A stretch of 56,129 nucleotides of DNA from Candidatus Parcubacteria bacterium (GCA_003597955.1 QZJU01000008.1:1-56129); one strand, 5' to 3'; numbered from the stretch's first letter, positions 2,151 through 52,685 are shown. The notes: a model not told the origin generated them from the sequence alone. Numbers and translations: made by a program.

Positions 2151-2567
2151 ATGAACAAAAACAAAGGTTTTAGCATGATCAGCGTCGTTTTAACAAGTTT
2201 GATTTTCTTACTGGTGATTTTTTTTGGTTTAAGGATAATCGGCTCTGAACGAGCCAAAGCCCGGGACGCGCAAAGGGTGGCGGACATGGCTCGTTTGCAG
2301 GTTGGTTTCTTAATGCTTTACAACCGGACCGCCTCCTATGCCGCGGCTGCGCAAAACGGTTGCGACCAGGCCGGCAAGCCGGTTCGTGTTTGTAATTTAG
2401 CTCAGGATTTTCCAGAAGTTAAAAATTTCAAAGATCCGCGTGGTGGGGAATATACAATGAGTAAAGTTCCGGATGCGAATTCTTATGAAATTTCTTTTGA
2501 GCTGGAAGTCGGTGCCACGGGCTTGAGCAAGGGTAAACACACCCTCACGCCCGCGGGGATAAAGTAG
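2151..2567 (+). CDS. Pilin-like protein (prepilin-type N-terminus, no Glu+5)
   Basis: MNKNKG|FSMISVVLTSLIFLLVIFFG followed by ERAKARDAQRVADM, the same post-helix motif as the first pilin ([14 protein letters not shown]). Confidence 0.6.
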   Translation: MNKNKGFSMISVVLTSLIFLLVIFFGLRIIGSERAKARDAQRVADMARLQVGFLMLYNRTASYAAAAQNGCDQAGKPVRVCNLAQDFPEVKNFKDPRGGEYTMSKVPDANSYEISFELEVGATGLSKGKHTLTPAGIK

Positions 2568-2637
2568 AACCCGTATTTGCAAGATTGCTTCGTCATTCCG
2601 CTAAGAGCGGAACCCCTCGCAATGACGATAAAATAAA

Positions 2638-3405
2638 ATGAACATCATAATTTATATCTTTACCTTTCTTTTCGGCGCTTGCGTCGGCAGTTTTTTGAAT
2701 GTGGTGATTTATCGCCTGCCCCGGAAACGAAAATTTTTGGATTTCCAACAAAGGTCAAAATGCCCCAGGTGCCGGCACCTTTTAAGCTTCTGGGATTTAA
2801 TTCCGGTTTTCAGTTTTATTTTTTTAAAAGGCAAATGCCGGTTCTGCCGCAAAAGGATCAGCTGGCAGTACCCGCTAGTGGAATTAATGACCGGCTTGAT
2901 TTTCGTCTTGATTTATTGGCAGTACGGCCTGGCTTGGCAAAGCTTGATTGGCCTTATTGGCGTAAGTGTTTTAATCGTTCTGGCTTTTATTGATGGCTTG
3001 CATAAAATCGTACCCGACCAAATCAGTCTGCCGGCGATCGCCATAATTTTTTGCCTGCAGATTTTGGTTAACCCCGGAGAATACCTTAGTTTAATTTTAG
3101 GCGGGATTTTCGGCGCGACCTGGTTCTGGCTGCAATGGTTAATTTCCAAAGGTAAATGGGTTGGCAGCGGCGACATCCGTTTAGGCGCGCTTTTGGGCGT
3201 TTTCCTGGGCCTGGGCAGCGCGCTCTTGGCCATTTTCAGCGCTTATATCATTGGCAGCCTGTGGGCAATTCAGCTTTTAATTCGGGGTAAAGTGCGCTTG
3301 AAAAGCCAGTTACCTTTTGGGATTTTTTTGGGGATTTTGGGCATAGTTTGCTTTATTTTTGGGCCTGAAGTGGTATCCTGGTATAGGGAGTTAATTGGAT
3401 TGTAA
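2638..3405 (+). CDS. pilD: Prepilin peptidase (A24 family, PilD-like)
   Basis: N-terminal Cys motif CPRCRHLL...CRFCRKRISWQYPLVELMTG, multiple TM helices, conserved GSGDIRLGALLG region. Confidence 0.85.
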   Translation: MNIIIYIFTFLFGACVGSFLNVVIYRLPRKRKFLDFQQRSKCPRCRHLLSFWDLIPVFSFIFLKGKCRFCRKRISWQYPLVELMTGLIFVLIYWQYGLAWQSLIGLIGVSVLIVLAFIDGLHKIVPDQISLPAIAIIFCLQILVNPGEYLSLILGGIFGATWFWLQWLISKGKWVGSGDIRLGALLGVFLGLGSALLAIFSAYIIGSLWAIQLLIRGKVRLKSQLPFGIFLGILGIVCFIFGPEVVSWYRELIGL

Positions 3406-3458
3406 TTTTGAAAAAACATTTACCCCGTACAATTTTTTGTTAAAAGTGACTTTTTTGA

Positions 3459-3564
3459 CCCCGCACCACTTTTCATAAACAGAACTTAATATTTGACCAT
3501 GGATTTTCACCCGAAAAAATTTCCTCCTCAAAAAGAAAGTCCTTTGTTAAAAAGTGGTGCGGGA
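3459..3564 (+). repeat. Hairpin leader module copy 1 (arms 3459-3475 / 3548-3564, 72-nt loop)
   Basis: Left arm CCCCGCACCACTTTTCA, right arm TAAAAAGTGGTGCGGGA (15/17 complementary). The loop contains the start of the 3493 ORF. Confidence 0.85.
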
Positions 3565-4410
3565 TTTACCTTTATCGAAACTCTGGTGGCTTTGTCGGTC
3601 TTGATGATTTTGCTTGGTTTGATTTTGGCCACCTACCGTCGGGGAAATGAGGACAGTATTTTGAACCGAGAAATTACATTACTAATGAGCCGATTTAGAT
3701 TAGCTCAAGAACAAACCGCTGGCGGAACGGTTGGTCGATATTGCGAACAGCCATATTACGGCATTTCCTGCCAAACCGACTCGAATTGTCCTGGGGGGTA
3801 TGCGTGTCGAAGCGCTGACGCCCCAAAAGGCGGGTATGTGATGGCTTTTAATTGCGATCCAAAACCAGAATCCGGAGCGCAATGGGGTTGGGGTTTTGAT
3901 TACCCTAAAATTGGTGATGTAAGCAAAGCTAATACAACCCCGTATTTCCTTTTTGGGGAAAGAGTTTCTTGTGACAGTAATTGTTATTCTGGTAATGATA
4001 ATAATTGGGTTTATGGGTTGGCTGACGAAAAAACTTCGCTTTTTAGTCGTATTGTGGGCGATACGGTGGTAAGCACTTTTCAACTTGACAACCGCGCGAT
4101 TTTTAAGGATTTGCAAATAATTTCTTCAAACCAGGAAAAGTATTGGTGTAATTCCGCACTGCCTTGGCGAGTCGTGCCCGTACCCAGTGATTATCCCTTG
4201 ATCGCCACAGTTCGTTTTAAACCGTCCGATGGTCGGCAGATTGAAATAACCAATAACGTTAGCATAAAGACTCCTAGCGGTTATGATTGGACAAAAGTTG
4301 AAGTCATGTTCGGCTTGCGGAGCCGAAATACAGATTGTCAGGTTGTCGCTTTTAGCCGCGAAGGCGTAGTTAGCAAGTATCTTGATACCAATTGCAGTTT
4401 TGCAAATTAA
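3493..4410 (+). CDS. Large prepilin-like protein, paralog 1 (long leader, G|FTFIE)
   Basis: MTMDFHPKKFPPQKESPLLKSGAG|FTFIETLVALSVLMILLGL. Track start is TTG 3493; an in-frame ATG lies at 3499. N- and C-terminal thirds are shared with ORFs 4832 and 6288. Confidence 0.7.
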   Translation: MTMDFHPKKFPPQKESPLLKSGAGFTFIETLVALSVLMILLGLILATYRRGNEDSILNREITLLMSRFRLAQEQTAGGTVGRYCEQPYYGISCQTDSNCPGGYACRSADAPKGGYVMAFNCDPKPESGAQWGWGFDYPKIGDVSKANTTPYFLFGERVSCDSNCYSGNDNNWVYGLADEKTSLFSRIVGDTVVSTFQLDNRAIFKDLQIISSNQEKYWCNSALPWRVVPVPSDYPLIATVRFKPSDGRQIEITNNVSIKTPSGYDWTKVEVMFGLRSRNTDCQVVAFSREGVVSKYLDTNCSFAN

Positions 4411-4515
4411 TCCCGTACCACTTTTCATTAACAGACCTTAGTATTTACCATGAATTTTCACCCAAAAAAATTCCCTCCTCAAAAATCAAACCCTTTGTTG
4501 AAAAGTGGTGCGGGG
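4411..4515 (+). repeat. Hairpin leader module copy 2, carrying an orphan leader (ATG 4450) with no pilin body
   Basis: Arms TCCCGTACCACTTTTCA / TGAAAAGTGGTGCGGGG. The loop encodes MNFHPKKFPPQKSNPLLKSGAG, then the frame runs into GIY-YIG upstream sequence. Confidence 0.8.
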
Positions 4516-4537
4516 CTAACCATGTTAATATTTTATC

Positions 4538-4786
4538 ATGCACTACGTATATTTATTGACCAATCGGATAAATCAAACAATTTACATAGGCTCAACAAAT
4601 AACCTAAAGAGGCGGATTCAAGACCATAATAAGGGTTTGATATTTTCAACAAAAAGATATTTACCTTGGAAATTAATTTATTATGAAGCATATTCCGATG
4701 AAGCCTTAGCTCGAAGGAGAGAAAAGCGACTGAAATATCATGGCAATTCAATTCGTGAATTAAAAAAACGAGCAGGAATAACTTAA
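4538..4786 (+). CDS. Small GIY-YIG nuclease (COG2827 / YhbQ-like)
   Basis: YVYLLTNRINQTIYIGSTNNLKRRIQDHN...KRLKYHG, i.e. GIY-YIG core (YVY...YIG), conserved Arg and Glu positions. 82 aa single-domain form. Confidence 0.85.
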   Translation: MHYVYLLTNRINQTIYIGSTNNLKRRIQDHNKGLIFSTKRYLPWKLIYYEAYSDEALARRREKRLKYHGNSIRELKKRAGIT

Positions 4787-4798
4787 TTAATGGGTTTA

Positions 4799-4903
4799 CC
4801 CCGCACCACTTTTCACTAACCATCTAATTACTTGACTCAAGAACATTCACCAGAGAAATATCCAAAACCTAAAAAACGCCTTTTGTTGAAAAGTGGTGCG
4901 GGG
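4799..4903 (+). repeat. Hairpin leader module copy 3 (arms 17/17 complementary, 71-nt loop, loop type 2)
   Basis: CCCCGCACCACTTTTCA at 4799-4815 and TGAAAAGTGGTGCGGGG at 4887-4903. Confidence 0.9.
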
Positions 4904-5863
4904 TTTACTTTCATCGAAACTTTGGTCGCCATAGGCATTCTTTTGGCTTTGCTGGCTGTGGTCTTGGCCAATTACCGTCGGGGCAATGACGACAGCGTGT
5001 TAAATCGGGAAGTTAGCCTGATGATGTCGCGGGTCAGGTATGCCCAAGAACTGACTTCAGCCGGAACTATAAGCAAGCATTGTCAGGCACCGCATTACAA
5101 CAAGCAGTGCAGTTCCGATGCTGAATGCACAAGTTTTCCCGGCACAGGCCTAAAGGGTTGTCAGCCAAAGCATTGCAGCTTAACTACTGGAACAACTTGT
5201 GCTTCCGATGTAGACTGCCCCGGCGGTGAAAAATGCATATCCGCGACCTTAACACCCGAAGGCGGATATGTGATGGCTTTTAATTGCAAGCCGGATTATG
5301 CAAATTATCCATGGGATTATTATGCAAATTACCCCCAAATTGGGTTGGGTCCAATCCCATACTTTCTCTTTGCTGAGCGTATTGATTGTAAAAACGATTG
5401 TTATGTCAGATTTAATACTTCTTGGGTCTACGATAAATCTGACGGGATAATCAGTTTTTATTTAGCAAACCCTTTTCCGCCCGGAGCTAATCCAAAAGGC
5501 GAGACCGTGGTGGAAATTTTTAAACCTTCACGCCAGATTGTCTTAAGAGATATTCAGCTAATCTCGGGTGTAGATAAATATTCCTGTCAGACGGGTTCTC
5601 CCTGGCGTAATCGGACAATCGCCGGCAAGACCATCCCAGCAGATTATCCTTTGCAAGCTACAGTGAATTTTAAAACTCCTGATGGCCGAAAGTCGATGTT
5701 GACAGACAATATTAGCAAAACCACTCCTGCCGGGTTCGAATGGACGAAGTTAGAGGTTATGCTGGGTATAAAAAACCGCACTACGGATTGCCGGGTGGTA
5801 AGCATTACCAAAGACAGCGTTATCAGCCAGAGCCTTGACGAGAATTGCAGTTTTAGCTCTTAA
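4832..5863 (+). CDS. Large prepilin-like protein, paralog 2
   Basis: TTG start; ...KKRLLLKSGAG|FTFIETLVAIGILLALLAVVLANYRRGN. Cys-rich variable middle; C-terminus ...TDCRVVSITKDSVISQSLDENCSF is shared with the paralogs. Confidence 0.7.
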   Translation: MTQEHSPEKYPKPKKRLLLKSGAGFTFIETLVAIGILLALLAVVLANYRRGNDDSVLNREVSLMMSRVRYAQELTSAGTISKHCQAPHYNKQCSSDAECTSFPGTGLKGCQPKHCSLTTGTTCASDVDCPGGEKCISATLTPEGGYVMAFNCKPDYANYPWDYYANYPQIGLGPIPYFLFAERIDCKNDCYVRFNTSWVYDKSDGIISFYLANPFPPGANPKGETVVEIFKPSRQIVLRDIQLISGVDKYSCQTGSPWRNRTIAGKTIPADYPLQATVNFKTPDGRKSMLTDNISKTTPAGFEWTKLEVMLGIKNRTTDCRVVSITKDSVISQSLDENCSFSS

Positions 5864-5968
5864 TCCCGCATCACTTTTCACTAACCATCTAATTACTTGA
5901 CCCAAGGACATTCACCAGAGAAATATCCAAAACCTAAAAATCACCTTTTGATGAAAAGTGGTGCGGGA
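5864..5968 (+). repeat. Hairpin leader module copy 4, orphan type-2 leader (TTG 5897) with no pilin body
   Basis: Arms TCCCGCATCACTTTTCA / TGAAAAGTGGTGCGGGA. The terminal T1/A17 change is compensatory. Confidence 0.8.
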
Positions 5969-5990
5969 TCCATCATTATTATTTTTAAAA

Positions 5991-6240
5991 ATGTATTACG
6001 TTTATTTATTAATAAGTAGTAAGAGACGGACAATATACATCGGCTCTACAAATAATTTTAAGAAAAAGAATTAAGGAACATAATAAGGGACTAGTTTTTT
6101 CCACCAGAAGGTATATGCCATTGAAATTGTTCTATTATGAAGTATATACAGACGAAAAAGCCGTCCGACAAAGAGAAAAAAGTTTGAAATATCACGGTAA
6201 TTCAGTCAAGGAATTAAAAAGGAGAGTTGGTATATCTTAG
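5991..6240 (+). pseudogene. GIY-YIG nuclease pseudogene (single frameshift)
   Basis: Reads MYYVYLLISSKRRTIYIGSTNNFKKKN then stop. The +1 frame continues RKRIKEHNKGLVFSTRRYMPLKLFYYEVYTDEKAVRQREKSLKYHGNSVKELKRR, collinear with the intact copy at 4538. Confidence 0.75.
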
Positions 6241-6253
6241 ATCTATGGGTTTA

Positions 6254-6359
6254 CCCCGCACCACTTTTCATTAACAGACTGTAAATTTTGACCATGGATT
6301 TTCACCCGAAAAAATTCCCGACTCAAAAAGAAAGCTCTTTGTTGAAAAGTGGTGCGGGG
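6254..6359 (+). repeat. Hairpin leader module copy 5 (arms 17/17, 72-nt loop, loop type 1)
   Basis: CCCCGCACCACTTTTCA at 6254-6270 and TGAAAAGTGGTGCGGGG at 6343-6359. Confidence 0.9.
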
Positions 6360-7319
6360 TTTACTTTGATTGAAACCCTTGTTGCGACCGGGATACTATT
6401 GGGTTTATTGGCCGTGGTGCTGGCCAATTACCAAAGGGGCGCTCAAGAGAGCGCTTTACATAGAGAAGCTGAATTATTTATGTCAAATATCCGTTTGGTC
6501 CAGGAGCAAACTGCCGCTGGTCAAATCGTTAATTATTGCTTGCACTATGTGGGCGCTGATTGTTTAACTGGATGTTCGGGTTATTCTTGCAGTCCTAAGC
6601 AAGAAACGCCTAAGGGTGGTTTTGGGCTTTTGGTCGGGTGTCAGCTAAATAGCGAGCCCGGCTGGGATCAGCCCTGGATTATTTATGGCGCAAATAATTC
6701 CTATCCTTCTCAAAATTCCACGAAAAAACAGGCTTATTATCTTTTTTCTGATAACCGCGCATGCTGGAATAATACGGGAACCGATTACTGTTGTTACCCC
6801 CTAACCAATTTTAGCTGTATCGGTTATGACGAAGGAACTGGCGACGCAGCTTCGGGTTCAGATGGCATCGTCACCACTCGACAATTTACTTTACTAAAAG
6901 GTGATACCCTAGAAAGAGAGCATGTTTTAGATAAGCAAATAGAATTTAAAGATTTAAGGCTCACGCGATATGTTCAGACGACCGGGAGTTTAAAGACTTA
7001 TTCTTGCCGTTCAGTTCATCCCGATAACCATACCCCTTGGCGAAATTTAAAGGTTCCCCAAACAAATTCTATGGTTATCAGTAATTATCACCTTGCAGCT
7101 TTGTTAAGATTTTTACCGCCCAACGGTCGTAAAGTTGTCATTTCCGACAATATTGCGGATTACCCACCAGATGCGGCAGGTCAACCAGATAAAAACAATC
7201 CTTGGTTAAAGGCGGAAGTTATGCTGGGCATAAAAAACCGCGCTACGGATTGCCGGGTGGTGAGCGTTAGCAAAGAGGGAGTAATCAGCCAGTCAGTTGA
7301 TTCAGACTGTGCTTTTTAG
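6288..7319 (+). CDS. Large prepilin-like protein, paralog 3
   Basis: MTMDFHPKKFPTQKESSLLKSGAG|FTLIETLVATGILLGLLAVVLANYQRG. C-terminus ...TDCRVVSVSKEGVISQSVDSDCAF. Confidence 0.7.
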   Translation: MTMDFHPKKFPTQKESSLLKSGAGFTLIETLVATGILLGLLAVVLANYQRGAQESALHREAELFMSNIRLVQEQTAAGQIVNYCLHYVGADCLTGCSGYSCSPKQETPKGGFGLLVGCQLNSEPGWDQPWIIYGANNSYPSQNSTKKQAYYLFSDNRACWNNTGTDYCCYPLTNFSCIGYDEGTGDAASGSDGIVTTRQFTLLKGDTLEREHVLDKQIEFKDLRLTRYVQTTGSLKTYSCRSVHPDNHTPWRNLKVPQTNSMVISNYHLAALLRFLPPNGRKVVISDNIADYPPDAAGQPDKNNPWLKAEVMLGIKNRATDCRVVSVSKEGVISQSVDSDCAF

Positions 7320-7331
7320 TAAAGTTAGTGT

Positions 7332-8345
7332 GTGAAACCTAAGATTCGACGGGCAAAAAAACCAAAGAAAATTTTTAAAGGCGCGGCCCTGCTGGAGTCG
7401 GTTATTGCCATTGGCGTCATCATGACCGGCGTAGTCGGTTCTTTGGTTCTGATCAACACCACCATCAAACTTGGCCGGACCAACCAAGACCGGATTATTG
7501 CCCAAAATCTGGCTCGGGAAGGAATTGAGCTGGCATATGGTTTACGAAACTCCGCGACTTTGGTCCACACTGAAGATTCTACAGTTTCCTGGGATTCGTA
7601 TTTGTATAAGTTTACATTGAAATCGGGAAGCTACGACACTTTGTATGATTTAGGCACTGGCAATTATGATGCTGGAACTTGCGTCACCATTGCCGGCGGT
7701 GATGCCATTTTGGATATGTGTGACATTCAGGTTTTGTTATTACATTTATACGAAGGCGGCCCATTGCCTTCGATGTGTAACACCATTCCCAATGGCGGTA
7801 GCAATCCTTCCCCGGACGCCAATGGTTGTGATTTTAACAACGACGGCGTAACCGGAATTTTGGATGTGACATTCATGATCTCCTCATTTTATAAAGAATC
7901 ATACCAGTTTTCCGCTGGCTATCCTGTTTTGTCGACAAAATTTCAGCCCAACGCACAGCTAGTTTTTTATGATGTTCGTGACGGTGAGACTATAAATTTA
8001 AGTCAGATGTGGGACGATGCTCGCAGTCGGATACAGGTAAATAACGGCGCCTACGTGCAGAATGTGACCGAAGCCGGTAATACGCCGACCAAATTTTATC
8101 GAACCGTTATTATGCAGGAAGTATGCCGGGGCACTCAAAGCGGAAGCGAAGAGGCCGTTTTGGTGCCAACAGATTCAGTCTTAAATTGCTATGATTATGT
8201 GAAGGCGCAAGGTTGGTCAGATGCTGACGCTGGCACAATAAAAAAAGTTGGGGTTTTGGCTAATTCCGAAGTCCGTTGGCCAAGCCCAACCAGCGGGACT
8301 AAAGTTTTGTACCAAGAATATATTTATGACTGGCTTAACTTCTAA
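7332..8345 (+). CDS. Minor pilin-like protein (PilV-like N-terminus) with internal dockerin/EF-hand-like loop
   Basis: GTG start. KKIFKG|AALLESVIAIGVIMTGVVGSLVL prepilin-type signal. DFNNDGVTGILD matches the DxNxDGxxxxxD calcium loop of dockerin repeats. Confidence 0.6.
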   Translation: MKPKIRRAKKPKKIFKGAALLESVIAIGVIMTGVVGSLVLINTTIKLGRTNQDRIIAQNLAREGIELAYGLRNSATLVHTEDSTVSWDSYLYKFTLKSGSYDTLYDLGTGNYDAGTCVTIAGGDAILDMCDIQVLLLHLYEGGPLPSMCNTIPNGGSNPSPDANGCDFNNDGVTGILDVTFMISSFYKESYQFSAGYPVLSTKFQPNAQLVFYDVRDGETINLSQMWDDARSRIQVNNGAYVQNVTEAGNTPTKFYRTVIMQEVCRGTQSGSEEAVLVPTDSVLNCYDYVKAQGWSDADAGTIKKVGVLANSEVRWPSPTSGTKVLYQEYIYDWLNF

Positions 8346-8445
8346 CCCCGCACCACTTTTCATTAACAACCTTAATATTTGACCATGGATTTTCACCCGA
8401 AAAAATTCCCGACTCAAAAAGAAAACCCTTTGTTGAAAAAGGTGG
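8346..8445 (+). repeat. Hairpin leader module copy 6 (tandem duplicate, right arm truncated to TGAAAAAGGTGG)
   Basis: The 104-bp unit 8346-8449 repeats at 8450-8553. Its leader (TTG 8379) is orphaned and reads into the next left arm. Confidence 0.85.
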
Positions 8446-8449
8446 TTTA

Positions 8450-8554
8450 CCCCGCACCACTTTTCATTAACAACCTTAATATTTGACCATGGATTTTCAC
8501 CCGAAAAAATTCCCGACTCAAAAAGAAAACCCTTTGTTGAAAAGTGGTGCGGGG
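8450..8554 (+). repeat. Hairpin leader module copy 7 (arms 17/17, 71-nt loop)
   Basis: CCCCGCACCACTTTTCA at 8450-8466 and TGAAAAGTGGTGCGGGG at 8538-8554. Confidence 0.9.
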
Positions 8555-9322
8555 TTTACTCTTATTGAAGTCATCGTGGCTACTGCCGTTTTTTCTATGG
8601 CCATGGTTTTGGCCACCACAGTTTTCGTGGTTTTCCTGCAACAGCAAAGGCGCACAATCAATCAGCAGGAAATGCAGAATGACGCCCGGGCCGTGATGGA
8701 GGAAATCGCGCAAAAACTGCGAGAAGGCGTAGCTGACTATGCTTATTACGCCACGAATTTTAACCTAGCACCCCAAAAGCTTTTAAGCAGTTTGAACGGT
8801 TCGAATGATGAGTGTTTGGTGATTCGCGATGCGCTTAACGAGCAATATTTTTATCGCTTGGCAGGAGGCAAGATTCAGAAGTTTTCTACTTCGACGCCGG
8901 GCACTACTGCCTGCAGCACGATTGCCAACTGGTCGGATATTACACCCGCCTCTTTGACGGTTGAGGCATTTTCAATTTTTATTTCCCCTTCCCAAGATCC
9001 CTTTCAGGGCAAATCTTATAAGGCCTGCGGCAAGCCAGGTGACTTTTTGGATCCGCCGGATAACGACAAGTGTACAGATTGGGGAACTTTTTGCACCGTT
9101 GACGGAAACACCTGTGAATACCAAAAATTAACCAATAGCATTTTGACCTGCTATTGCACGCCCCAAAGGTTCGGCAATGTCGTTCCTTTGCATCCCAAAG
9201 TCACCATAAGCCTGAAAGTTTCCAGAGTTGCGGGTCAATTGACTTTAAGCGAAACTTACCAAACTACGATTACTAGCCGGATTTTCAAGAATTTCGATAA
9301 ATTAAACCGGTATGCGCCGTAA
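8483..9322 (+). CDS. Minor pilin-like protein (PilW-like) using the same leader module
   Basis: MTMDFHPKKFPTQKENPLLKSGAG|FTLIEVIVATAVFSMAMVLATTVFVVF. Cys-rich C-terminal half. Confidence 0.6.
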   Translation: MTMDFHPKKFPTQKENPLLKSGAGFTLIEVIVATAVFSMAMVLATTVFVVFLQQQRRTINQQEMQNDARAVMEEIAQKLREGVADYAYYATNFNLAPQKLLSSLNGSNDECLVIRDALNEQYFYRLAGGKIQKFSTSTPGTTACSTIANWSDITPASLTVEAFSIFISPSQDPFQGKSYKACGKPGDFLDPPDNDKCTDWGTFCTVDGNTCEYQKLTNSILTCYCTPQRFGNVVPLHPKVTISLKVSRVAGQLTLSETYQTTITSRIFKNFDKLNRYAP

Positions 9323-10583
9323 ATTCGCAAGAAACAAAAAATTTTTTAAAAGCCCAAACGGCGTGTCTTTGCTGGCGGCCTTATTGGTGATGTCGGTTGT
9401 CGTGGCTATCGGCATTACCGTCAGCACAATCGTGGTTTTTCAGGTTAAGGTCAATGCTGTGGTTTTTCAAGGCCATCAAAATTACTACATTGCGGAATCA
9501 GGCATTGAGCACGCTTTGAACGTCTTAAAAGAGAAAAAATCCGGGACGCTGGCCGCGGGTTTAACCGCGATCCAGACGGCAAATCCGTTCCCTGCCGGCA
9601 TTCCGGGCCAGGCGGATTTAACGCAAAGCATTGGTATAGCCGGCGGCGCGACCGTACCCACAGAATTAAAAGAAAATTCCAGCGTTTACATTGAGCTCTA
9701 TAATGTCGACGCCAGCATAACCCCAATTGCGCCGCAAACCCCAATCCTGTGCGTTTACGGTACAGGCAGTGGCGATGAAGTTTTGGAAGTGTCATGGGTT
9801 GCCTGGTCAGAAAGTTTGGAGATTTCCAATCCGCAAAAAACTCTGATTTCTCACACGAATTTCAGTCAAACAGCAAGTTGCGATGGGGGCGCCCATGATG
9901 GGCAGACTATAGACCTGACCAATTTTTTTCCGGCTTTTACACCAAGCGGTCAATTAGCCGGGTTCCGCATTAGGATTTCGGCCATTAAGCCCACTGCCAG
10001 TAGTCCCGGCGACGGTGCTGGCGATGTCAGTAATTTTGAGGTTTACACCAATCCTTCGAATTTAAGCACACAAATTCAAGTAAAGTCAGTCAGTAATACT
10101 GGCGGGCAAACCCAGGCTTTGATTGCGACTTTTCCGTGGTCAGAGCCGATTTCTTCATTTTTCGACTTCGTGATATTCAGTGGTGAAACTTTGAGAAAGG
10201 AAGTACCGGTTTCCATTGGTCAGAATGTTAAGAAATTCGGGCCATTTATCGTACAGGCCGGAACCAACGCCATTCCCGCAACCCCGTCAGACCCATTTGT
10301 CGGCTGTGATGCCAATCCTTGTGATTACTACATCAGACTTTTAAGCACTGGCACGCCCAGTCCATGGGGGACATTTCAAGTTACCACTTCGGGGCTAGGC
10401 ACGAACACAGTGATTGCAACCTCAAGTATCGCCAGCTGCATTTTACGCAATTCTTATACTTTTAGCGCGACCAGCGCTACCATAACTTTTCCAAGCCCTC
10501 TCCCGCCCTCGCTTTTCCAATACGAATTACTGTCAGAACCAACTTTTCGGGATACTAACGAAACTTATTGCCCGGGTAATTGA
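9312..10583 (+). CDS. PilX-like minor pilin / pilus-associated protein
   Basis: Basic N-terminus, then the hydrophobic helix GVSLLAALLVMSVVVAIGITVSTIVVF and YYIAESGIEHALNVL, resembling PilX N-terminal domains. Overlaps the previous ORF by 11 nt. Confidence 0.5.
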   Translation: MRRKFARNKKFFKSPNGVSLLAALLVMSVVVAIGITVSTIVVFQVKVNAVVFQGHQNYYIAESGIEHALNVLKEKKSGTLAAGLTAIQTANPFPAGIPGQADLTQSIGIAGGATVPTELKENSSVYIELYNVDASITPIAPQTPILCVYGTGSGDEVLEVSWVAWSESLEISNPQKTLISHTNFSQTASCDGGAHDGQTIDLTNFFPAFTPSGQLAGFRIRISAIKPTASSPGDGAGDVSNFEVYTNPSNLSTQIQVKSVSNTGGQTQALIATFPWSEPISSFFDFVIFSGETLRKEVPVSIGQNVKKFGPFIVQAGTNAIPATPSDPFVGCDANPCDYYIRLLSTGTPSPWGTFQVTTSGLGTNTVIATSSIASCILRNSYTFSATSATITFPSPLPPSLFQYELLSEPTFRDTNETYCPGN

Positions 10584-11694: not shown

Positions 11695-11825
11695 GGCGAG
11701 CAACCTGCTCGCCAAGCCGGCATGGCAGGCGGAGCTCGCCACCTACCAACTAAACAACACAGAGCACAAACTCTATTTTTTAACATGGTATATTATTAAC
11801 AGCGTAGGTGCAGAGCTTGCTCTGC
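11695..11825 (+). repeat. REP-bearing composite repeat, left copy
   Basis: Contains palindromes GGCGAGC-aacct-GCTCGCC and GCAGAGC-tt-GCTCTGC. About 85 percent identical by eye to 12291-12419. Further REP-like hairpin GTAGGTGAGCAAGCTCACCACCTAC at 11602-11626. Confidence 0.75.
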
Positions 11826-11849
11826 TGGGACTATAACTAAGATAAATTA

Positions 11850-12290
11850 ATGCCATTTAAAAAGTCAATTCGATTAACAAGTTTTGATTATTCGTCTGAC
11901 GGAGCGTATTTTGTGACCATATGTACTTTTCAAAAATCCAAATTCATTATTCCGGCATACGAAATAATTTTGAAACGTGAGTTAAGGGAATTAGAAATAC
12001 GTTTTCGAGGCGTAAAAATAGATTTTTTTGTTTTTATGCCAACTCATTGCCATATCATATTTGTTTTTCGCAACGCTGAAGTCGATTTGCCAAAAGTTAT
12101 TCAGGCATTTAAATCAATAACAACCTTAAAATTAAAGAAAGCTGGATTCCACGGCAGTTATTTTTGGCAGAAGAATTATTATGAACATGTAGTTAGGGAC
12201 GAAGAAGCTTTGTATAGAATCAGGGAATATATTAAATTAAATCCTGAAAGCGAAAGACTGTTAAATTTTAGCCAGTCAAAACACGATTAG
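11850..12290 (+). CDS. REP-associated tyrosine transposase (RAYT, IS200/IS605 Y1 family)
   Basis: HUH motif in FMPTHCHIIF and catalytic Tyr region WQKNYYEHVVRDE. 146 aa. Flanked by REP-like palindromes. Confidence 0.8.
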   Translation: MPFKKSIRLTSFDYSSDGAYFVTICTFQKSKFIIPAYEIILKRELRELEIRFRGVKIDFFVFMPTHCHIIFVFRNAEVDLPKVIQAFKSITTLKLKKAGFHGSYFWQKNYYEHVVRDEEALYRIREYIKLNPESERLLNFSQSKHD

Positions 12291-12419
12291 GTCAGCAACC
12301 TGCCCGCCAAGCCGGCATGGCAGGCGGGGCTGGCCACCTACTCATTAAACAACACAGGGCACAGACTAGATTTTGAACACGGCATATATAAAATTCAGTA
12401 GGTGCAGAGCTTGCTCTGC
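12291..12419 (+). repeat. REP-bearing composite repeat, right copy
   Basis: Direct repeat of 11695-11825, ending in the same GTAGGTGCAGAGCTTGCTCTGC. Additional related fragments lie at 12445-12522. Confidence 0.75.
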
Positions 12420-12530
12420 CAGCCCTATTAAGTAATAGTTTTAGACAGGCGAGCGAGCTGGCCACCTACCCAAATTAAACAGCAAAGGTTAGTTGCTCTG
12501 CTAACTGTTGCGTGAAAAAAAGAAATATAA

Positions 12531-29619: not shown

Positions 29620-29728
29620 CCCCGCACCGCTTTCCAGCCGAATACTTTTTACCTGCTTACAGAATATTCAGCCTGGCAAATATCTTTTACGCTTAAATCC
29701 AAGACTTGAGTTGGAAAGTGGTACGGGG
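29620..29728 (+). repeat. Hairpin module copy 8 (non-pilin context, unrelated 75-nt loop)
   Basis: Arms CCCCGCACCGCTTTCCA / TGGAAAGTGGTACGGGG, pairing with one G-U and one C-A. Confidence 0.8.
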
Positions 29729-29729
29729 T

Positions 29730-29758
29730 TTGACGAAAAATTCCGGTTCTGTTATACT
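29730..29758 (+). promoter_or_regulatory. Candidate promoter of tuf
   Basis: TTGACG (29730-29735), 17-nt spacer, TATACT (29753-29758). The -35 box starts 2 nt after the hairpin module's right arm. Confidence 0.55.
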
Positions 29759-29830
29759 CGCATTTGCACTTCTTAATATTTTTGACTGTTAAAACCTTAA
29801 AAATTTAATTTAATTAACCAAAACAAGACA

Positions 29831-45801: not shown

Positions 45802-45906
45802 CCCCGCACCACTTTCCAAATTAAACCTTAGGTTTAGTGTAAGGTTATTTGCCTAATAAATATTTTAGTACTAAATGTTGGCGTTTTGCTGGAAAGTGGT
45901 GCGGGG
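45802..45906 (+). repeat. Hairpin module copy 9 (non-pilin context, unrelated 71-nt loop)
   Basis: Arms CCCCGCACCACTTTCCA / TGGAAAGTGGTGCGGGG, 17/17 complementary. The left arm starts 2 nt after the DUF192 stop. Confidence 0.85.
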
Positions 45907-45935
45907 TTGACTGGCTTTCAGATTTTTGGTAAATT
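45907..45935 (+). promoter_or_regulatory. Candidate promoter of rplU
   Basis: TTGACT (45907-45912), immediately after the right arm, 17-nt spacer, TAAATT (45930-45935). Confidence 0.5.
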
Positions 45936-45968
45936 TAGCCTACTAAATTTTTTAGGAATTATATTTGT

Positions 45969-50796: not shown

Positions 50797-50872
50797 GCGC
50801 CTATAGCTCAATTGGCAGAGCAGGGGCCTTTTAAGCCCAAGGTTGGAGGTTCGATTCCTCCTGGGCGCACCA
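50797..50872 (+). tRNA. tRNA-Lys (anticodon UUU), CCA encoded
   Basis: GCGCCTA-TA-GCTC-AATTGGCA-GAGC-A-GGGGC-CTTTTAA-GCCCA-AGGTT-GGAGG-TTCGATT-CCTCC-TGGGCGC-A-CCA. One G-A mismatch at 27:43. Confidence 0.9.
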
Positions 50873-52309
50873 ACTAGAAAATGAGGCGCTTTGCGCCGCC
50901 ACAGCCCAGCCCAAATGGGCTTCAAATCGCAGCGTTTTGCCTTTCAAAAGAAAGTTCGAGCCGATATTTTTCATTGAATTCTTAATTTCCAAGAGGTCGC
51001 GCGAGATTGCGACTTTTTTGGCTTGCTTGCTTAGTAAAATGAATTCTCGCATGGGTTCGAGCCAAACCAAACCCTCGCCCCGGAGTTGAGCGAATTTTTC
51101 CTCAATTCTCACTTTTTCATTTACTAGGGTGTCTTTCTTGGATAAATACTCCGAAGTGGAAATAGATCGCTCTAGCTTTGCGTCTAAAAGATTGTCCAAT
51201 TTCTTTTCAACAACGATCAACGTATCTTTTTTCTCTTGGGCGAGGGCTTTAGTGGTTTGCTCATTACGTTCTTTTTCCGTATCTAGCTTCGCCAGCATTT
51301 TATCAGCCCAATCATCACGAATAGAATGGCTGGTTAAAGTCGCCCTCATTTGCTCAACCAGTGCTTCTTCACGCAAGAATTTAGTTTCGCATTTGCCTTT
51401 CTTCTTAGTGCAACGGTAGTACGTATGTCCTTTCTGGCTTTCAGCTGTAATGTAGCAGCCGCAAGAAGCGCATTTCATCAAACCAAGAAAGGCAAAGTTG
51501 TGTTTCTTTACTTCCCTCGCGCGACCTCGTTTACGCATCATCGCCCGGGCCTTATCAAATAAATCTCTAGAAATGAATGTGTCGTGGCTTCCTTGGTACG
51601 TTTCATCCCAGTAAGTGAACACGCCGACGTAAAAGGTATTTTTCAGCATGTTTTGCATCATACTGGCGGAAAACGGATGCCCCCAGTGGCTTTTAATTTT
51701 GGCTTTGGTATTGCACCATTTGGCAAGCGCATCTAGTGTCCAGTCGCCGGTTAAGTACATAGCGAAAATTTTCTTCACTATCTTGGCTTCTCGCTTTTCA
51801 ATCAGCACTTTTCTGCTCTTCGGGTCATTAAAGTAACCAAGTGGTGCCATAGACGGCCACTCACCACGGCGTAGTTTTTGTCTCAAGCCCCGTTTTACGT
51901 TTTCCGAGAGATTGTCCACGTAGTACTTGGATTGCCCAAAGGCAATATTCAGCATGAATTTCCCTTGCGGCGTGTTCTCAAACCAAAATGTGGGGAATTT
52001 CAGGTTTTGAATTTTATCCCTATCGGTCAGGTAAATGACCTGCCCACCGTCTACGGGGTTTCTAGCTAATCTGTCGGGGTGCCAGGCGATGATGCCATTG
52101 GCTTCGCCTTTTTCAATTCTCTTGAGCATCTCATTGAAGATTTTTCGCCCGGGTTCTTTGGCAGTTTTTGCCTCGCAGAGCGAGGCGACGATTTCAAGTT
52201 TTTCTTTGGCGGCAAATTCTTTTAATTCATCAATTTGAGATTCAATACTTAAAACCTGACGATCCTCCTCGTCAGTGGATTTTCTGGCGTAGAGAAAATA
52301 TTTATCCAT
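50831..52309 (-). CDS. Large serine recombinase 1 (resolvase/invertase catalytic domain + recombinase + zinc-ribbon domains)
   Basis: N-terminal YARKSTDEEDRQVLSIESQ (catalytic Ser context), DRLARNP, Cys cluster CASCGC...YYRCTKKKGKC, coiled-coil tail. The last 13 codons are antisense to tRNA-Lys. Confidence 0.88.
   Translation of the reverse strand: MDKYFLYARKSTDEEDRQVLSIESQIDELKEFAAKEKLEIVASLCEAKTAKEPGRKIFNEMLKRIEKGEANGIIAWHPDRLARNPVDGGQVIYLTDRDKIQNLKFPTFWFENTPQGKFMLNIAFGQSKYYVDNLSENVKRGLRQKLRRGEWPSMAPLGYFNDPKSRKVLIEKREAKIVKKIFAMYLTGDWTLDALAKWCNTKAKIKSHWGHPFSASMMQNMLKNTFYVGVFTYWDETYQGSHDTFISRDLFDKARAMMRKRGRAREVKKHNFAFLGLMKCASCGCYITAESQKGHTYYRCTKKKGKCETKFLREEALVEQMRATLTSHSIRDDWADKMLAKLDTEKERNEQTTKALAQEKKDTLIVVEKKLDNLLDAKLERSISTSEYLSKKDTLVNEKVRIEEKFAQLRGEGLVWLEPMREFILLSKQAKKVAISRDLLEIKNSMKNIGSNFLLKGKTLRFEAHLGWAVAAQSASFSSWCAQEESNLQPWA
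50867..50945. repeat. IR-A left copy (79 bp, begins with the tRNA 3' end GCACCA)
   Basis: Base-for-base reverse complement of 52376-52454, checked by hand. Confidence 0.9.
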
Positions 52310-52327
52310 ACCTTTGTAAAGTTAATG

Positions 52328-52358
52328 ATAAAGAGGGGGGAAAGTGCGCTTTTGGCCC
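52328..52358 (-). promoter_or_regulatory. Shared upstream motif, copy upstream of recombinase 1
   Basis: On the minus strand reads GGGCCAAAAGCGCACTTTCCCCCCTCTTTAT, 19-49 nt upstream of the recombinase 1 ATG. Near-identical motif at 52594-52623 upstream of the XRE gene. Confidence 0.5.
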
Positions 52359-52375
52359 CCTGCGCTAACGCGCAG

Positions 52376-52454
52376 GAAAGGCAAAACGCTGCGATTTGAA
52401 GCCCATTTGGGCTGGGCTGTGGCGGCGCAAAGCGCCTCATTTTCTAGTTGGTGC
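52376..52454. repeat. IR-A right copy (79 bp, ends with TGGTGC)
   Basis: Perfect reverse complement of 50867-50945. Confidence 0.9.
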
Positions 52455-52542
52455 AGTCTTTTTGAGAAAATACGAACCGAGTTTGCGGGCGGCGGCTCGC
52501 GCGCGGAGGAGACCCAGCCGCCGCCCGCTGCCGCGCCGTTTT
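52449..52542. repeat. IR-B left copy (94 bp, begins with TGGTGC; contains a 12-bp GC hairpin)
   Basis: Perfect reverse complement of 54606-54699. Overlaps IR-A by the 6-bp core. Confidence 0.9.
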
Positions 52543-52593
52543 AAAAACTGCCAAAGAACCCTAGAGGAAAAATATCGGCTCTCACTTTCTTTT

Positions 52594-52623: not shown

Positions 52624-52685
52624 TGATTAGTCCACTTTGGACTATTCCATACTGGACTATATCATGAATATGTGGAACAATCAAT

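What the first reader, a model, noticed from the sequence alone, without database searches (positions are those of the whole stretch)
4499..6270. GIY-YIG nuclease genes sit exactly at the palindromic junction between two hairpin modules
Where two modules abut without cargo (8434-8466), a right arm meets the next left arm across TTTA. The undamaged form GTGGTGCGGGG-TTTA-CCCCGCACCAC would have 11-nt arms that are perfect reverse complements across the 4-nt TTTA spacer. Both GIY-YIG genes lie in that centre: ...GTGCGGGG|ctaacc-GIY-YIG-ttaatgGG|TTTACCCCGCAC at 4515-4799, and the equivalent arrangement at 5968-6254. Each is preceded by an orphan leader copy cut off from any pilin body, and followed by a complete module plus an intact pilin paralog. 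The second nuclease gene (5991-6240) carries a single frameshift in an A-run near codons 24-27. Established: GIY-YIG enzymes include homing endonucleases, and free-standing small COG2827 members are often multicopy. Inference: the nuclease cassette targets the arm-arm palindrome and brings or regenerates a leader copy so the downstream pilin stays expressed. This could also drive gene conversion among the pilin paralogs.
Basis: partly seen in the sequence, partly recalled or inferred. Interest (0 to 1): 0.7.

Follow-up and report, generated by a model that had tools for sequence, protein, structure and literature searches.

The report
Hairpin-repeat nuclease genes in pilin array
Two small GIY-YIG nuclease genes sit between copies of a ~105-base hairpin repeat that also encodes the signal-peptide end of neighbouring pilus-protein genes. 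This looks like a version, in ultra-small (CPR) bacteria, of the recently described Ssn nuclease/hairpin-repeat system, and in related genomes the nuclease is even fused in frame to the pilin as a giant leader peptide.

Summary
Nine copies of a 17-nt-armed hairpin module occur in the window, seven of them in a type IV pilin operon. An intact 82-aa GIY-YIG gene (4538-4786) and a copy with one frameshift (5991-6240) each lie between the 3' arm of one module and TTTA plus the 5' arm of the next.

In about 160 related loci this nuclease family is tightly tied to such inverted repeats (57% against 5% in a control), often with 4-nt flanking duplications. Its closest clade sits at the 5' end of pilin genes. 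A syntenic relative carries the gene at a different module boundary. However, the usual position is inside or just upstream of a hairpin, not in an arm-arm palindrome.

The nearest characterised relatives are Ssn nucleases (2025), which cut single-stranded DNA just upstream of a hairpin repeat. I therefore read this as an Ssn-like nuclease/hairpin-repeat element that has colonised pilin 5' ends, with its 3' arm translated as the leader end ...KSGAG|FT.

Apparently unreported: at least 80 protein clusters are in-frame GIY-YIG-prepilin fusions. Nuclease activity, cleavage target and mobility are all untested.

The parts
2638..3405 (+). Prepilin peptidase (PilD-type), the enzyme that would cut after the leader encoded by the modules
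   Evidence: Pfam A24_N_bact E 1.8e-35 and Peptidase_A24 E 2.2e-11
3459..3564 (+). Hairpin module (A-type loop) in front of pilin paralogue 1. C-arm 3459-3474, G-arm 3549-3564
   Evidence: RNA fold -36.1 kcal/mol, z -5.8
3493..4410 (+). Pilin paralogue 1 (305 aa). Its leader MTMDFHPKKFPPQKESPLLKSGAG|FTFIE is encoded by the loop and the G-arm
   Evidence: N_methyl motif; 50% identical to the 300-aa pilin of L291
4411..4515 (+). Hairpin module with an orphan leader (ORF 4450-4602 runs into the nuclease region, no pilin body). C-arm 4411-4426 has a U.G wobble; G-arm 4500-4515
4516..4537 (+). 22-nt spacer CTAACCATGTTAATATTTTATC between the G-arm and the nuclease ATG. It is homologous to the spacer before copy 2
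   Evidence: repeat D3: 4490-4610 vs 5943-6063, 71%
4538..4786 (+). GIY-YIG nuclease gene 1, intact, 82 aa, single domain (Ssn-like)
   Evidence: PF01541 E 8.4e-19. Catalytic Y5, Y16, R26, H30 and E62 conserved. 45-47% identical to SRM-flanked Ssn-type proteins
4787..4798 (+). 3' junction TTAATGGGTTTA. GGGTTTA directly precedes the next C-arm; the predicted Ssn-type cut zone is a few nt 5' of the hairpin
   Evidence: The same (AT)GGGTTTA-C-arm junction occurs at 6241-6253 and in L291, L204, L122 and L289. The cut position is inferred from PMC11893778
4799..4903 (+). Hairpin module (B-type loop) flanked by TTTA on both sides. It supplies the leader MTQEHSPEKYPKPKKRLLLKSGAG of pilin 2
   Evidence: TTTA/TTTA flanks
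4832..5863 (+). Pilin paralogue 2 (343 aa). No orthologue in the syntenic relative L291. Same reading frame as nuclease gene 1, separated by two TAA stops
5864..5968 (+). Hairpin module (B-type loop; 93-94% identical to the 4799 module over both the loop and the whole module) with an orphan leader (ORF 5897-6019)
5991..6240 (+). GIY-YIG nuclease gene 2, disrupted by one extra A in the run at 6063-6067. The repaired product is 82 aa and 66% identical to copy 1
6254..6359 (+). Hairpin module (A-type loop) flanked by TTTA on both sides; supplies the leader of pilin 3
   Evidence: z -7.6
6288..7319 (+). Pilin paralogue 3 (343 aa)
   Evidence: 44% identical to the 334-aa pilin of L291
8346..8449 (+). 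Hairpin module with a shortened G-arm (GAAAAAGGTGG). It starts directly after the stop codon of the 337-aa gene. Identical over 95 nt to the next module
8434..8466 (+). Cargo-free arm-arm junction (damaged G-arm, TTTA, C-arm)
   Evidence: A similar lesion occurs at the junction with the equivalent position in L291
8450..8554 (+). Hairpin module flanked by TTTA on both sides; supplies the leader of the 279-aa pilin (8483-9322)
   Evidence: N_methyl E 1.8e-5
29620..29728 (+). Same hairpin arms with an unrelated loop, between fusA and tuf
45802..45906 (+). Same hairpin arms with an unrelated loop, directly after a stop codon and upstream of rplU
   Evidence: (z -8.5)

Best explanation
The region holds a Patescibacteria (CPR) variant of the Ssn-type pairing of a nuclease with a hairpin repeat.

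What is there. The repeat is a ~105-nt module: C-arm CCCCGCACCACTTTTCA, a ~70-nt loop, and G-arm TGAAAAGTGGTGCGGGG. It behaves like a miniature inverted-repeat element, and three copies here are flanked by a TTTA duplication. The 82-aa single-domain GIY-YIG protein is its cognate nuclease. Its gene lies between two complete hairpins, which is the 'repeat-gene-repeat' layout described for ssnA.

Link to the pilins. The repeat has colonised the 5' ends of type IV pilin paralogues. The loop supplies a start codon and a basic leader. The G-arm is translated as the last leader residues (L)KSGAG. The TTTAC flank encodes the first residues, F-T, of the mature pilin, so the pilin is still made and is processed by PilD.

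Inferred mechanism, by analogy with Ssn. The nuclease binds the hairpin when the DNA is single-stranded (at replication, or during DNA uptake) and cuts a few nucleotides 5' of the C-arm, in or next to GGGTTTA. Repair from another repeat copy then spreads or homogenises the repeats and carries the adjacent nuclease gene along. This would explain why the gene abuts GGGTTTA-C-arm and why it is present at different module boundaries in related genomes.

What is shown: the anatomy, the family-wide association with hairpins, the 4-nt duplications, the presence/absence differences, and the in-frame fusions in relatives. What is inferred: nuclease activity, single-strand specificity, the cut position and the spreading mechanism.
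For: 1. Anatomy. Nine modules, stable stems, and the G-arm coding for KSGAG|FT. PilD is in the operon.

2. Protein. One GIY-YIG domain with the catalytic residues intact. It is 45-47% identical over residues 3-66 to Azospirillum and Rhizobium proteins. The Azospirillum gene (L283) is flanked on both sides by a near-canonical Ssn repeat, CGTCATCCCCGCGAAGGCGGGGATCCAG; the Rhizobium gene (L282) is flanked by a more divergent variant, CGTCATCCCAGGG...CCCTGGGAT. The best hit to a solved structure is only E 0.03 (UPF0213, SLX1).

3. Published biology. Ssn proteins are ~94-aa single-domain GIY-YIG enzymes. They bind hairpin repeats only as single-stranded DNA and cut a few nt upstream. The stem can be supplied by two separate strands. 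The gene is typically flanked by the repeats, which occur in many genomic copies (PMC11893778).

4. Family-wide association. An inverted repeat of score >=11 brackets 57% of the 161 gene copies scored (159 in other loci, plus the window's two), against 5% in a permuted control. Arm sequence changes along with the protein clade (CCCAGCACC, CCCGGTAGT, ATCCCACACATAAC, CCGCGTAAAAGGC...), with compensating changes in the two arms.

5. Insertion signatures. 31 of 80 elements have a 4-nt direct repeat at symmetric boundaries, against 6% in a control; the repeats are TATG, TTTA, TGGA, TGAA and others. 30 of 80 have an ORF of >=50 codons starting at an ATG within -2 to +7 nt of the G-arm end.

6. Pilin link. 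Of the 12 closest loci, 11 sit directly upstream of a pilin N-terminus; L289, found separately, does too. Of 14 with a canonical motif, 11 are in the pilin's frame and 8 have no stop. At least ~80 clusters at 50% identity are GIY-YIG plus prepilin fusions.

7. Turnover. The syntenic relative L291 carries the gene at a different boundary and lacks the block from nuclease 1 through pilin 2 to nuclease 2.

8. The same arms occur as short-loop hairpins after genes in other Patescibacteria (L046, L063).

9. Loops within the window are 81-99% identical within each loop type (65-71% between types), while the pilins are 28-38% identical.
Against: - No biochemical data exist for any CPR member.
- The repeat does not match the published Ssn repeat consensus beyond the CCCCGC/GCGGGG stem base.
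- The last ~16 residues differ from the SRM-flanked proteins (KYHGNxIRELKKR against KxWNRxWKIxLIE), so membership of the Ssn clade (cd10448) is not established.
- The window's topology (G-arm, gene, C-arm) is the reverse of the commonest one in relatives (C-arm, gene, G-arm).
- U.G/G.U wobbles on the + strand in three modules, and hairpins that follow stop codons directly, are equally compatible with a role in RNA.
- GIY-YIG enzymes do not catalyse strand transfer, so the 4-nt duplications have no worked-out mechanism.
- Only one 56-kb window of the genome was available, so the genome-wide copy number is unknown.
Confidence: 0.6

Rival explanations
1. The nuclease is a classical duplex-DNA homing endonuclease. 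Its recognition site is the perfect palindrome formed where a G-arm meets the next C-arm (GTGGTGCGGGG-TTTA-CCCCGCACCAC). The cassette inserts into its centre and carries a leader copy.
For: - Three occupied G-arm|gene|TTTA-C-arm junctions: two in the window and one in L291.
- All six unoccupied junctions in nuclease-bearing loci have a mutated G-arm, as expected for resistant alleles: window 8434, L204, L123, L205, L125 and L291 m2|m3.
- The only two intact junctions in the genome collection lie in loci without the gene.
- Presence/absence differences between syntenic genomes.
Against: - Most relatives have the gene inside a single hairpin, or upstream of a hairpin with no preceding G-arm.
- In L123, L205 and L125 the junction lies next to the gene, unoccupied.
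- The protein is only a catalytic domain with no DNA-binding module, unlike I-TevI or Seg enzymes.
- Ssn relatives show no activity on duplex DNA (PMC11893778).
- The damaged G-arm at 8434 resembles the one at the junction with the equivalent position in L291, and also an ordinary short leader (TTGAAAAAAGGATTT in L291). It may therefore be old or ancestral rather than a resistance mutation.
- The two copies in the window may come from one duplication.
Confidence: 0.15
2. The system is domesticated and not mobile. The hairpins act in RNA between cistrons, as 3'-end stabilisers or RNase III sites, or by masking the start codon and leader. The nuclease is a host factor made together with pilins, for example to process or restrict incoming single-stranded DNA at the pilus/competence machinery, as SsnA modulates transformation in Neisseria.
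For: - Wobble pairs are U.G/G.U on the mRNA-sense strand in modules 4411, 5864 and 29620.
- C-arms start directly after stop codons. The G-arms of modules 29620 and 45802 are followed by -35/-10-like hexamers.
- In-frame fusions would give one nuclease per pilin, released at the cytoplasmic face of the membrane (prepilin topology is established knowledge).
- Ssn affects transformation (PMC11893778).
- The same hairpin occurs as a short terminator-like stem in other CPR genomes.
Against: - 4-nt flanking duplications are far above the control level.
- The gene sits at different boundaries in syntenic genomes.
- One copy here is frameshifted.
- Elements sit exactly at the start codons of unrelated genes.
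- Modules are much more alike than the genes they precede.
- No Rfam family matches, and the promoter scan is not above background.
- This reading does not exclude the main one, because domestication of a once-mobile element is possible.
Confidence: 0.2
3. There is no functional link. The nuclease genes are passengers, and their identical setting is simply the result of tandem duplication of a unit made of module, nuclease, module and pilin within an expanding pilin array.
For: - The flanks of the two copies are homologous (repeat D3).
- The two nuclease copies are 66% identical and the pilin paralogues 28-38%, so both are old duplicates.
- Each copy's best match among the sequences collected here is roughly the other copy.
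Against: The association of this protein family with bracketing inverted repeats and with pilin 5' ends recurs across about 150 other loci from many genomes. L291 has the gene at a different boundary.
Confidence: 0.05

Closest known systems
Ssn nucleases and their NTS/SRM hairpin repeats (SsnA of Neisseria meningitidis; Chenal et al., Nat Commun 2025, PMC11893778)
   Same: - A single-domain GIY-YIG protein of about 80-95 aa.
- The gene is flanked by hairpin-forming inverted repeats, and the same repeat is dispersed in further copies.
- The stem base is CCCGC/GCGGG.
- 45-47% identity over two thirds of the protein to proteins whose genes carry SRM-type repeats on both sides, near-canonical in L283 and more divergent in L282.
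- Nuclease clade and repeat sequence change together.
   Different: - The host is CPR/Patescibacteria, which that paper does not mention.
- The arms are 17 nt, with long loops of ~70 nt that can hold a coding leader or the nuclease gene itself. The published repeat is a 28-nt hairpin with a conserved 5' flank.
- The repeat overlaps coding sequence (the prepilin leader), whereas NTS repeats are rarely inside genes.
- The C-terminal ~16 residues differ.
- In-frame fusion to prepilins and 4-nt flanking duplications are not described for Ssn.
- Activity has not been tested here.
Free-standing GIY-YIG homing endonucleases (phage T4 Seg proteins, I-TevI)
   Same: - GIY-YIG catalytic core.
- The gene lies next to a conserved host sequence and varies in presence between related genomes.
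- The flanking host sequence (the leader) is duplicated or regenerated.
   Different: - No DNA-binding domain.
- No intron.
- Bracketing inverted repeats and 4-nt duplications are not features of homing endonuclease genes.
- No close full-length relatives in viral contigs.
REP/BIME repeats with RAYT (Y1 HUH) transposases, and IS200/IS605 'peel and paste' elements
   Same: - Short palindromic repeats recognised as single-stranded hairpins by a small nuclease.
- The nuclease gene is flanked by the repeats.
- Insertion next to a specific tetranucleotide (IS608 uses TTAC; my own knowledge).
   Different: - The enzyme here is GIY-YIG, which forms no covalent intermediate and performs no strand transfer.
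- The window's own Y1 transposase gene (11850-12290) is flanked by unrelated repeats.
Palindromic miniature elements that sit in or at genes (Rickettsia palindromic elements, Neisseria Correia elements; my own knowledge)
   Same: Elements of about 100-150 bp with terminal inverted repeats and short target duplications. They are tolerated in or at coding sequence, and sometimes translated or providing expression signals.
   Different: Those elements have no associated GIY-YIG gene and no link to prepilin leaders.
Inteins and self-splicing introns that carry homing endonucleases
   Same: This is a functional analogy only. In the fused relatives, the selfish protein would be removed from the host protein after translation, leaving the host product intact.
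   Different: Removal would be done by the host prepilin peptidase at G|F, not by self-splicing. This is an inference and has not been shown.

Membership tests
Ssn nuclease / SRM repeat system (cd10448) | Single-domain GIY-YIG protein of about 80-100 aa | tested here: met
   82 aa; PF01541 covers residues 1-71, E 8.4e-19; catalytic residues conserved
Ssn nuclease / SRM repeat system (cd10448) | Sequence falls in the cd10448 clade | tested here: inconclusive
   45-47% identity over residues 3-66 to two proteins whose genes carry SRM-type repeats on both sides, which is far better than UPF0213 or SLX1 (E 0.03-0.2). The C-terminal 16 residues differ, and neither CDD nor an SsnA sequence was available
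Ssn nuclease / SRM repeat system (cd10448) | Gene flanked on both sides by hairpin-forming repeats | tested here: met
   Modules 4411 and 4799 flank copy 1; modules 5864 and 6254 flank copy 2
Ssn nuclease / SRM repeat system (cd10448) | Same repeat present in many further genomic copies | tested here: met
   Nine copies in 56 kb, two of them outside the pilin operon. The genome-wide count could not be tested
Ssn nuclease / SRM repeat system (cd10448) | Repeat matches the NTS/SRM consensus CGTCATTCCCGCGMAVGCGGGAATCYRG | tested here: not met
   Only the CCCCGC/GCGGGG stem base and a loosely similar GTnnAC 5' flank are shared. The arms are longer and the loop is about 70 nt
Ssn nuclease / SRM repeat system (cd10448) | Cuts only single-stranded DNA, a few nt upstream of the hairpin | not testable with these tools
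   Needs a biochemical assay
Free-standing GIY-YIG homing endonuclease | Catalytic domain joined to a sequence-specific DNA-binding domain | tested here: not met
   The protein is only the catalytic domain
Free-standing GIY-YIG homing endonuclease | Occupied and empty alleles exist, and the empty allele is cleaved | tested here: inconclusive
   Presence/absence differences between the window and L291. Cleavage cannot be tested
IS/MITE-like element (terminal inverted repeats plus target duplication) | Terminal inverted repeats | tested here: met
   17-nt arms in the window; 57% of the 161 scored gene copies (159 in other loci) against 5% control
IS/MITE-like element (terminal inverted repeats plus target duplication) | Short direct duplication of the target | tested here: met
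   TTTA/TTTA at modules 4799, 6254 and 8450. 31 of 80 elements in relatives against 6% control. The other six window modules lack a perfect duplication
IS/MITE-like element (terminal inverted repeats plus target duplication) | Encodes a recognised transposase | tested here: not met
   GIY-YIG is the only ORF, and no transposase family is matched
Type IV prepilin (class III signal peptide) for the downstream genes | G|F(T/S)xxE cleavage/methylation motif followed by a hydrophobic helix | tested here: met
   KSGAG|FTFIETLVA and similar. N_methyl hits: above Pfam's gathering score for the 8483 pilin (24.5 vs 21.2 bits), below it for the 3493 and 4832 pilins (19.6 and 16.4 bits), none for the 6288 pilin, which nevertheless has the motif. 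The fusion protein P0139 has PF01541 plus PF07963
Type IV prepilin (class III signal peptide) for the downstream genes | Cognate prepilin peptidase present | tested here: met
   ORF 2638-3405 has A24_N_bact and Peptidase_A24
REP/RAYT system | Repeats associated with a Y1 (HUH) transposase | tested here: not met
   The Y1_Tnp gene at 11850-12290 is flanked by unrelated 136-nt direct repeats
Integron gene cassettes (attC hairpins) | Tyrosine integrase and attC core sites | tested here: not met
   No integrase in or near the array. The only recombinases are serine recombinases beyond 50 kb. The module carries a coding leader rather than attC cores

The most novel reading that the evidence does not exclude
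The hairpin-bracketed GIY-YIG units may be a previously unrecognised class of autonomous mobile element that carries only a small nuclease. On this reading they insert with a 4-nt duplication exactly at the 5' end of open reading frames, either at the start codon or, in pilins, at the leader/mature boundary.

The pilin-specific lineage would then hide in its host gene by becoming the prepilin leader. The GIY-YIG domain is translated in frame as an ~85-130-aa leader and is removed by the host prepilin peptidase. That would be a protein-level counterpart of an intein, and it would release an active nuclease at the cytoplasmic face of the pilus/DNA-uptake machinery. The short modules in this window would be its ORF-less derivatives.
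Probability: 0.35. Interest if true: 0.85.

Novelty: new variant of a known kind. Interest (0 to 1): 0.66.

Why it matters
- The Ssn family was characterised only in 2025, and its role outside Neisseria is open. Its authors noted the insertion-sequence-like gene layout but gave no evidence of mobility. The loci gathered here supply such evidence: flanking 4-nt duplications, placement exactly at start codons, and different occupancy in syntenic genomes. They also extend the system to CPR bacteria.
- The overlap of a selfish or regulatory DNA hairpin with the coding sequence of the prepilin leader is an unusual way for an element to live inside an expressed gene.
- So is the existence of at least ~80 protein clusters in which a whole nuclease domain takes the place of the leader.
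- CPR bacteria depend on type IV pili for DNA uptake and for attachment to host cells. A nuclease for single-stranded DNA that is made together with pilins could affect transformation or pilin diversification.
- All of this can be tested with oligonucleotide cleavage assays and a PilD co-expression experiment.

Tried and rejected
- a 14-mer arm search of the genome collection was too unspecific and returned chance hits in unrelated phyla. Only L046 and L063 were useful. One scan was wasted.
- Rfam found nothing in the region, only two tRNAs in the whole window.
- the promoter/terminator scan of 3400-8700 was not above the shuffled background, so I make no promoter claim for the pilin modules.
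- the only other contig encoding the exact protein (L121) is 100% identical to the window, so it gives no strain-level variants.
- viral contigs hold only matches to the N-terminal motif and no full-length relatives, so there is no evidence for a phage vector.
- no supplementary files of the Ssn paper are held, so no SsnA sequence could be obtained. I used plasmid-borne SRM-flanked homologues instead.
- my impression by eye that the module downstream of the L291 nuclease resembles the window's B-type loop (which would suggest that nuclease and downstream module move together) failed. Identity is 67-68% to B-type and 64-69% to A-type. I dropped the claim.
- integron/attC reading rejected, because there is no integrase.
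- link to the neighbouring Y1 transposase rejected, because its flanking repeats are different.
- comparison of the two window copies is uninformative. They are about as far from each other as from copies in other genomes.
- I tried to reconstruct the pre-insertion sequence at 4799 as a former in-frame fusion. Removing the module plus one TTTA puts nuclease and pilin out of frame, so the history cannot be reconstructed from this window.

Full report
SETTING

The window comes from a CPR/Patescibacteria-type genome. It carries a ribosomal protein operon, ligA and gatCA, and the closest nuclease homologues are named Levybacteria, Daviesbacteria and 'Patescibacteria group'. Positions 2151-10583 form a type IV pilus operon. 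It contains a PilD-type prepilin peptidase at 2638-3405 and several pilin-like genes with the G|FTLIE motif.

THE REPEAT

The arm GAAAAGTGGTGCGGGG occurs 17 times, against 0.76 expected. The arms pair into nine modules, each consisting of:
- a C-arm, CCCCGCACCACTTTTCA;
- a loop of about 70 nt;
- a G-arm, TGAAAAGTGGTGCGGGG.

The eight modules that were folded (all but 8346) give 17-20 bp stems, with z-scores from -4.4 to -8.5. Seven modules lie in the pilin operon. There the loop holds an in-frame start codon and a basic peptide. The G-arm encodes the leader end (L)LKSGAG, and the following TTTAC encodes F-T of the mature pilin.

Two loop types exist. A-type loops (five copies) are 81-99% identical to one another, and the two B-type loops are 93% identical. 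The pilin paralogues they precede are only 28-38% identical. Modules 8346 and 8450 are identical over 95 nt. The repeats are therefore homogenised, or spread recently, independently of the genes.

Two further modules have the same arms but unrelated loops. One lies between fusA and tuf, the other upstream of rplU. The same arms occur as short-loop hairpins behind genes in other Patescibacteria (L046, L063).

THE NUCLEASE GENES

- Copy 1 (4538-4786) is an intact 82-aa single GIY-YIG domain.
- Copy 2 (5991-6240) has one extra A at 6063-6067. Once repaired it is 66% identical to copy 1.
- Each copy lies between a G-arm and (AT)GGGTTTA plus the next C-arm.
- Each follows an orphan leader and precedes a complete module plus a pilin.

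WHAT RELATIVES SHOW

I collected about 160 loci that encode relatives. I scored 161 gene copies with sufficient flanks: 159 in those loci, plus the window's own two.

1. An inverted repeat of score >=11 brackets the gene in 57% of copies, against 5% when upstream and downstream flanks are permuted between loci. The usual layout is a C-arm abutting the ATG and a G-arm just after the stop, so the gene lies inside the hairpin. The arm sequence differs between protein clades, with matching changes in both arms.

2. Of 80 well-defined elements, 31 carry a 4-nt direct repeat at symmetric boundaries, against 6% in a control. The repeats are TATG, TTTA, TGGA, TGAA and others. In 30 of the 80, an ORF of >=50 codons starts at an ATG within a few nt of the G-arm end. 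These are discrete insertions placed exactly at the 5' ends of genes.

3. The clade closest to the window (>=60% identity) sits at pilin 5' ends: 11 of the 12 closest loci, and also L289, found separately. Layouts vary:
   - GGGTTTAC, C-arm, gene, G-arm, TTTAC, pilin (L203, L213, L206);
   - the same, followed by an extra hairpin (L123, L205, L125);
   - gene, GGGTTTA, hairpin, pilin (L202, L204, L122, L289, L291 and the window).

4. The nuclease ORF is often fused in frame to the pilin. The pattern is ...ELKKRIGL, a linker of 0-50 aa, then KSGAG|FTLIE. Eight of 14 loci with a canonical motif have no stop, and 11 of 14 share the frame. A search of 1.84 billion representative proteins with one such fusion returned about 85 long proteins among the best 150 that span both domains (my count). 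They carry Pfam GIY-YIG plus N_methyl, keep the catalytic residues and include Buchananbacteria proteins annotated only as hypothetical. Where the downstream hairpin has a long loop with its own start codon (the window, L204, L291, L206), the nuclease ORF ends in a stop. Where the loop is short and has no start codon (L122, L202), the ORF reads through. This fits selection to keep the pilin expressed.

A SYNTENIC COMPARISON

L291 shares gene order from pilC to the two-component system. LigA is 74% identical and PilD 67%.
- It has orthologues of pilins 1 and 3 but not of pilin 2.
- It has no nuclease gene between them.
- It has one nuclease gene (68% identical to copy 1) between the 366-aa gene and the last pilin. 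That is the boundary where the window has only modules 8346 and 8450.

The gene therefore occupies different module boundaries in related genomes. In L291 the gene again lies between a G-arm and ATGGGTTTA plus C-arm. An unoccupied junction with a similarly damaged G-arm (AAAAAAGGTGGGA-TTTAT-C-arm) follows it. So the lesion at 8434 may be old. It also resembles an ordinary short leader (TTGAAAAAAGGATTT, encoding LKKG|F) seen in L291.

THE PALINDROME TEST

The intact junction GGTGCKGGGTTTACCCMGCACC occurs in only two genomes of the collection. Both hits are in SDR epimerase genes, where GGTGGTGCGGGGTTTA encodes the Rossmann motif GGAGF. In each, a module with no nuclease gene is inserted after TTTA, and the 5' end of the gene is present on both sides. 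This shows that modules can enter other genes at the same sequence while regenerating the 5' end. It neither proves nor excludes that the junction is a cleavage target.

CLOSEST KNOWN SYSTEM

The literature search points to the Ssn family. Its members are ~94-aa single-domain GIY-YIG enzymes. They bind a hairpin repeat only as single-stranded DNA and cut a few nt upstream. The stem can be formed from two separate strands. The gene is flanked by the repeats, which occur in hundreds of copies, and the authors remark that this layout resembles an insertion sequence.

The window protein is 45-47% identical over residues 3-66 to Azospirillum and Rhizobium proteins. The Azospirillum gene is flanked on both sides by a near-canonical Ssn repeat; the Rhizobium gene is flanked by a more divergent variant. 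The repeat here shares only the CCCCGC stem base with the Ssn consensus, and the C-terminus differs. I therefore call it Ssn-like and do not claim membership. No paper in the held library mentions GIY-YIG with prepilins, or this system in CPR bacteria. One paper notes GIY-YIG ORFs in non-intron insertions of CPR rRNA genes, which may be the same kind of element.

INTERPRETATION

The best-supported reading is an Ssn-like nuclease/hairpin element that has colonised pilin 5' ends. The predicted cut zone, a few nt 5' of the C-arm, coincides with the GGGTTTA boundary next to which the gene sits.

The rivals are not excluded:
- duplex homing into the palindrome;
- a domesticated role in RNA or in DNA uptake;
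- simple duplication.

The second of these can coexist with the main reading. Activity, strand specificity, the origin of the 4-nt duplications and any effect on pilin diversification remain inferences.

Noticed in passing
window 11699-12428: An IS200-like Y1 transposase ORF (11850-12290; Pfam Y1_Tnp E 3e-8) is bracketed by ~136-nt direct repeats (11699-11834 and 12294-12428; 74-88% identical) that are unrelated to the pilin hairpin. In the syntenic relative L291 the same slot holds a DUF559 endonuclease-like gene instead.
   Followed up: partly
window 50797-56046: A tRNA (50797-50869) is followed by two large serine recombinase genes on the minus strand (50831-52309 and 54604-56046), an Ltp-type lipoprotein gene (52912-53727) and a GC-rich ~44-nt repeat pair whose two copies are largely reverse complements of each other (52485-52528 / 54620-54663; listed as direct repeat D7, 73% identical). 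This is probably an integrated element or a prophage remnant.
   Followed up: partly
L129, L136, L151, L155, L229, L233, L259 and others (flanks of the GIY-YIG gene near position 3000): In a more distant clade (45-62% identity), a 20-25-nt inverted repeat CCC(C/G)G(T/G)AGT... brackets the nuclease gene. The element sits exactly at the start codon of an unrelated gene, with TATG, ATGA or TGAA duplicated on both sides. 30 of 80 elements have a long ORF starting at the G-arm end.
   Followed up: partly
L284 1800-2000 (minus strand) and L285 6860-7010: The intact G-arm-TTTA-C-arm palindrome occurs inside SDR epimerase genes, where GGTGGTGCGGGGTTTA encodes the Rossmann motif GGAGF. A module without a nuclease gene is inserted after TTTA, and the gene's start and N-terminal codons appear on both sides. 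In L285 the two copies are different sequences.
   Followed up: partly
window 29729-29775 and 45907-45940: The G-arms of the two non-pilin modules are followed directly by sigma-70-like hexamers (TTGACG-17-TATACT before tuf; TTGACT-17-TAAATT before rplU). The C-arm of module 45802 starts one base after a stop codon, so the hairpin may act as operon punctuation. These were read by eye only.
   Followed up: no
window 8345-8439 vs 8449-8543: Two adjacent modules are 100% identical over 95 nt and differ only in the G-arm. Loops are 81-99% identical within each loop type (65-71% between the A and B types), far more alike than the pilin genes. This points to concerted evolution or recent spread.
   Followed up: partly
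window 3493-4410, 4832-5863, 6288-7319: The three large pilin paralogues are conserved in their N-terminal fifth (62-67% aa) and C-terminal fifth (38-51% aa; 87% nt identity between 5753-5830 and 7215-7292) and very divergent in between. This mosaic is compatible with cassette-like variation.
   Followed up: partly
window 4538-4909: Nuclease gene 1 and pilin 2 are in the same reading frame, separated only by two TAA codons (4784 and 4817). L204 shows the same frame relationship, also with stops. This may be a trace of a former fusion, or chance.
   Followed up: partly
L291 1121-1468, 5537-5932, 13489-13857: The syntenic relative carries three copies of a small DUF559/MTES_1575 endonuclease-like gene scattered through the same region. 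This is another multicopy small nuclease gene in a CPR genome.
   Followed up: no
literature (PMC11270868): In CPR rRNA genes, GIY-YIG ORFs are reported in insertions that are not introns. Hairpin-bracketed elements like those seen here could be such insertions and could be removed from rRNA by RNase III-type processing.
   Followed up: no
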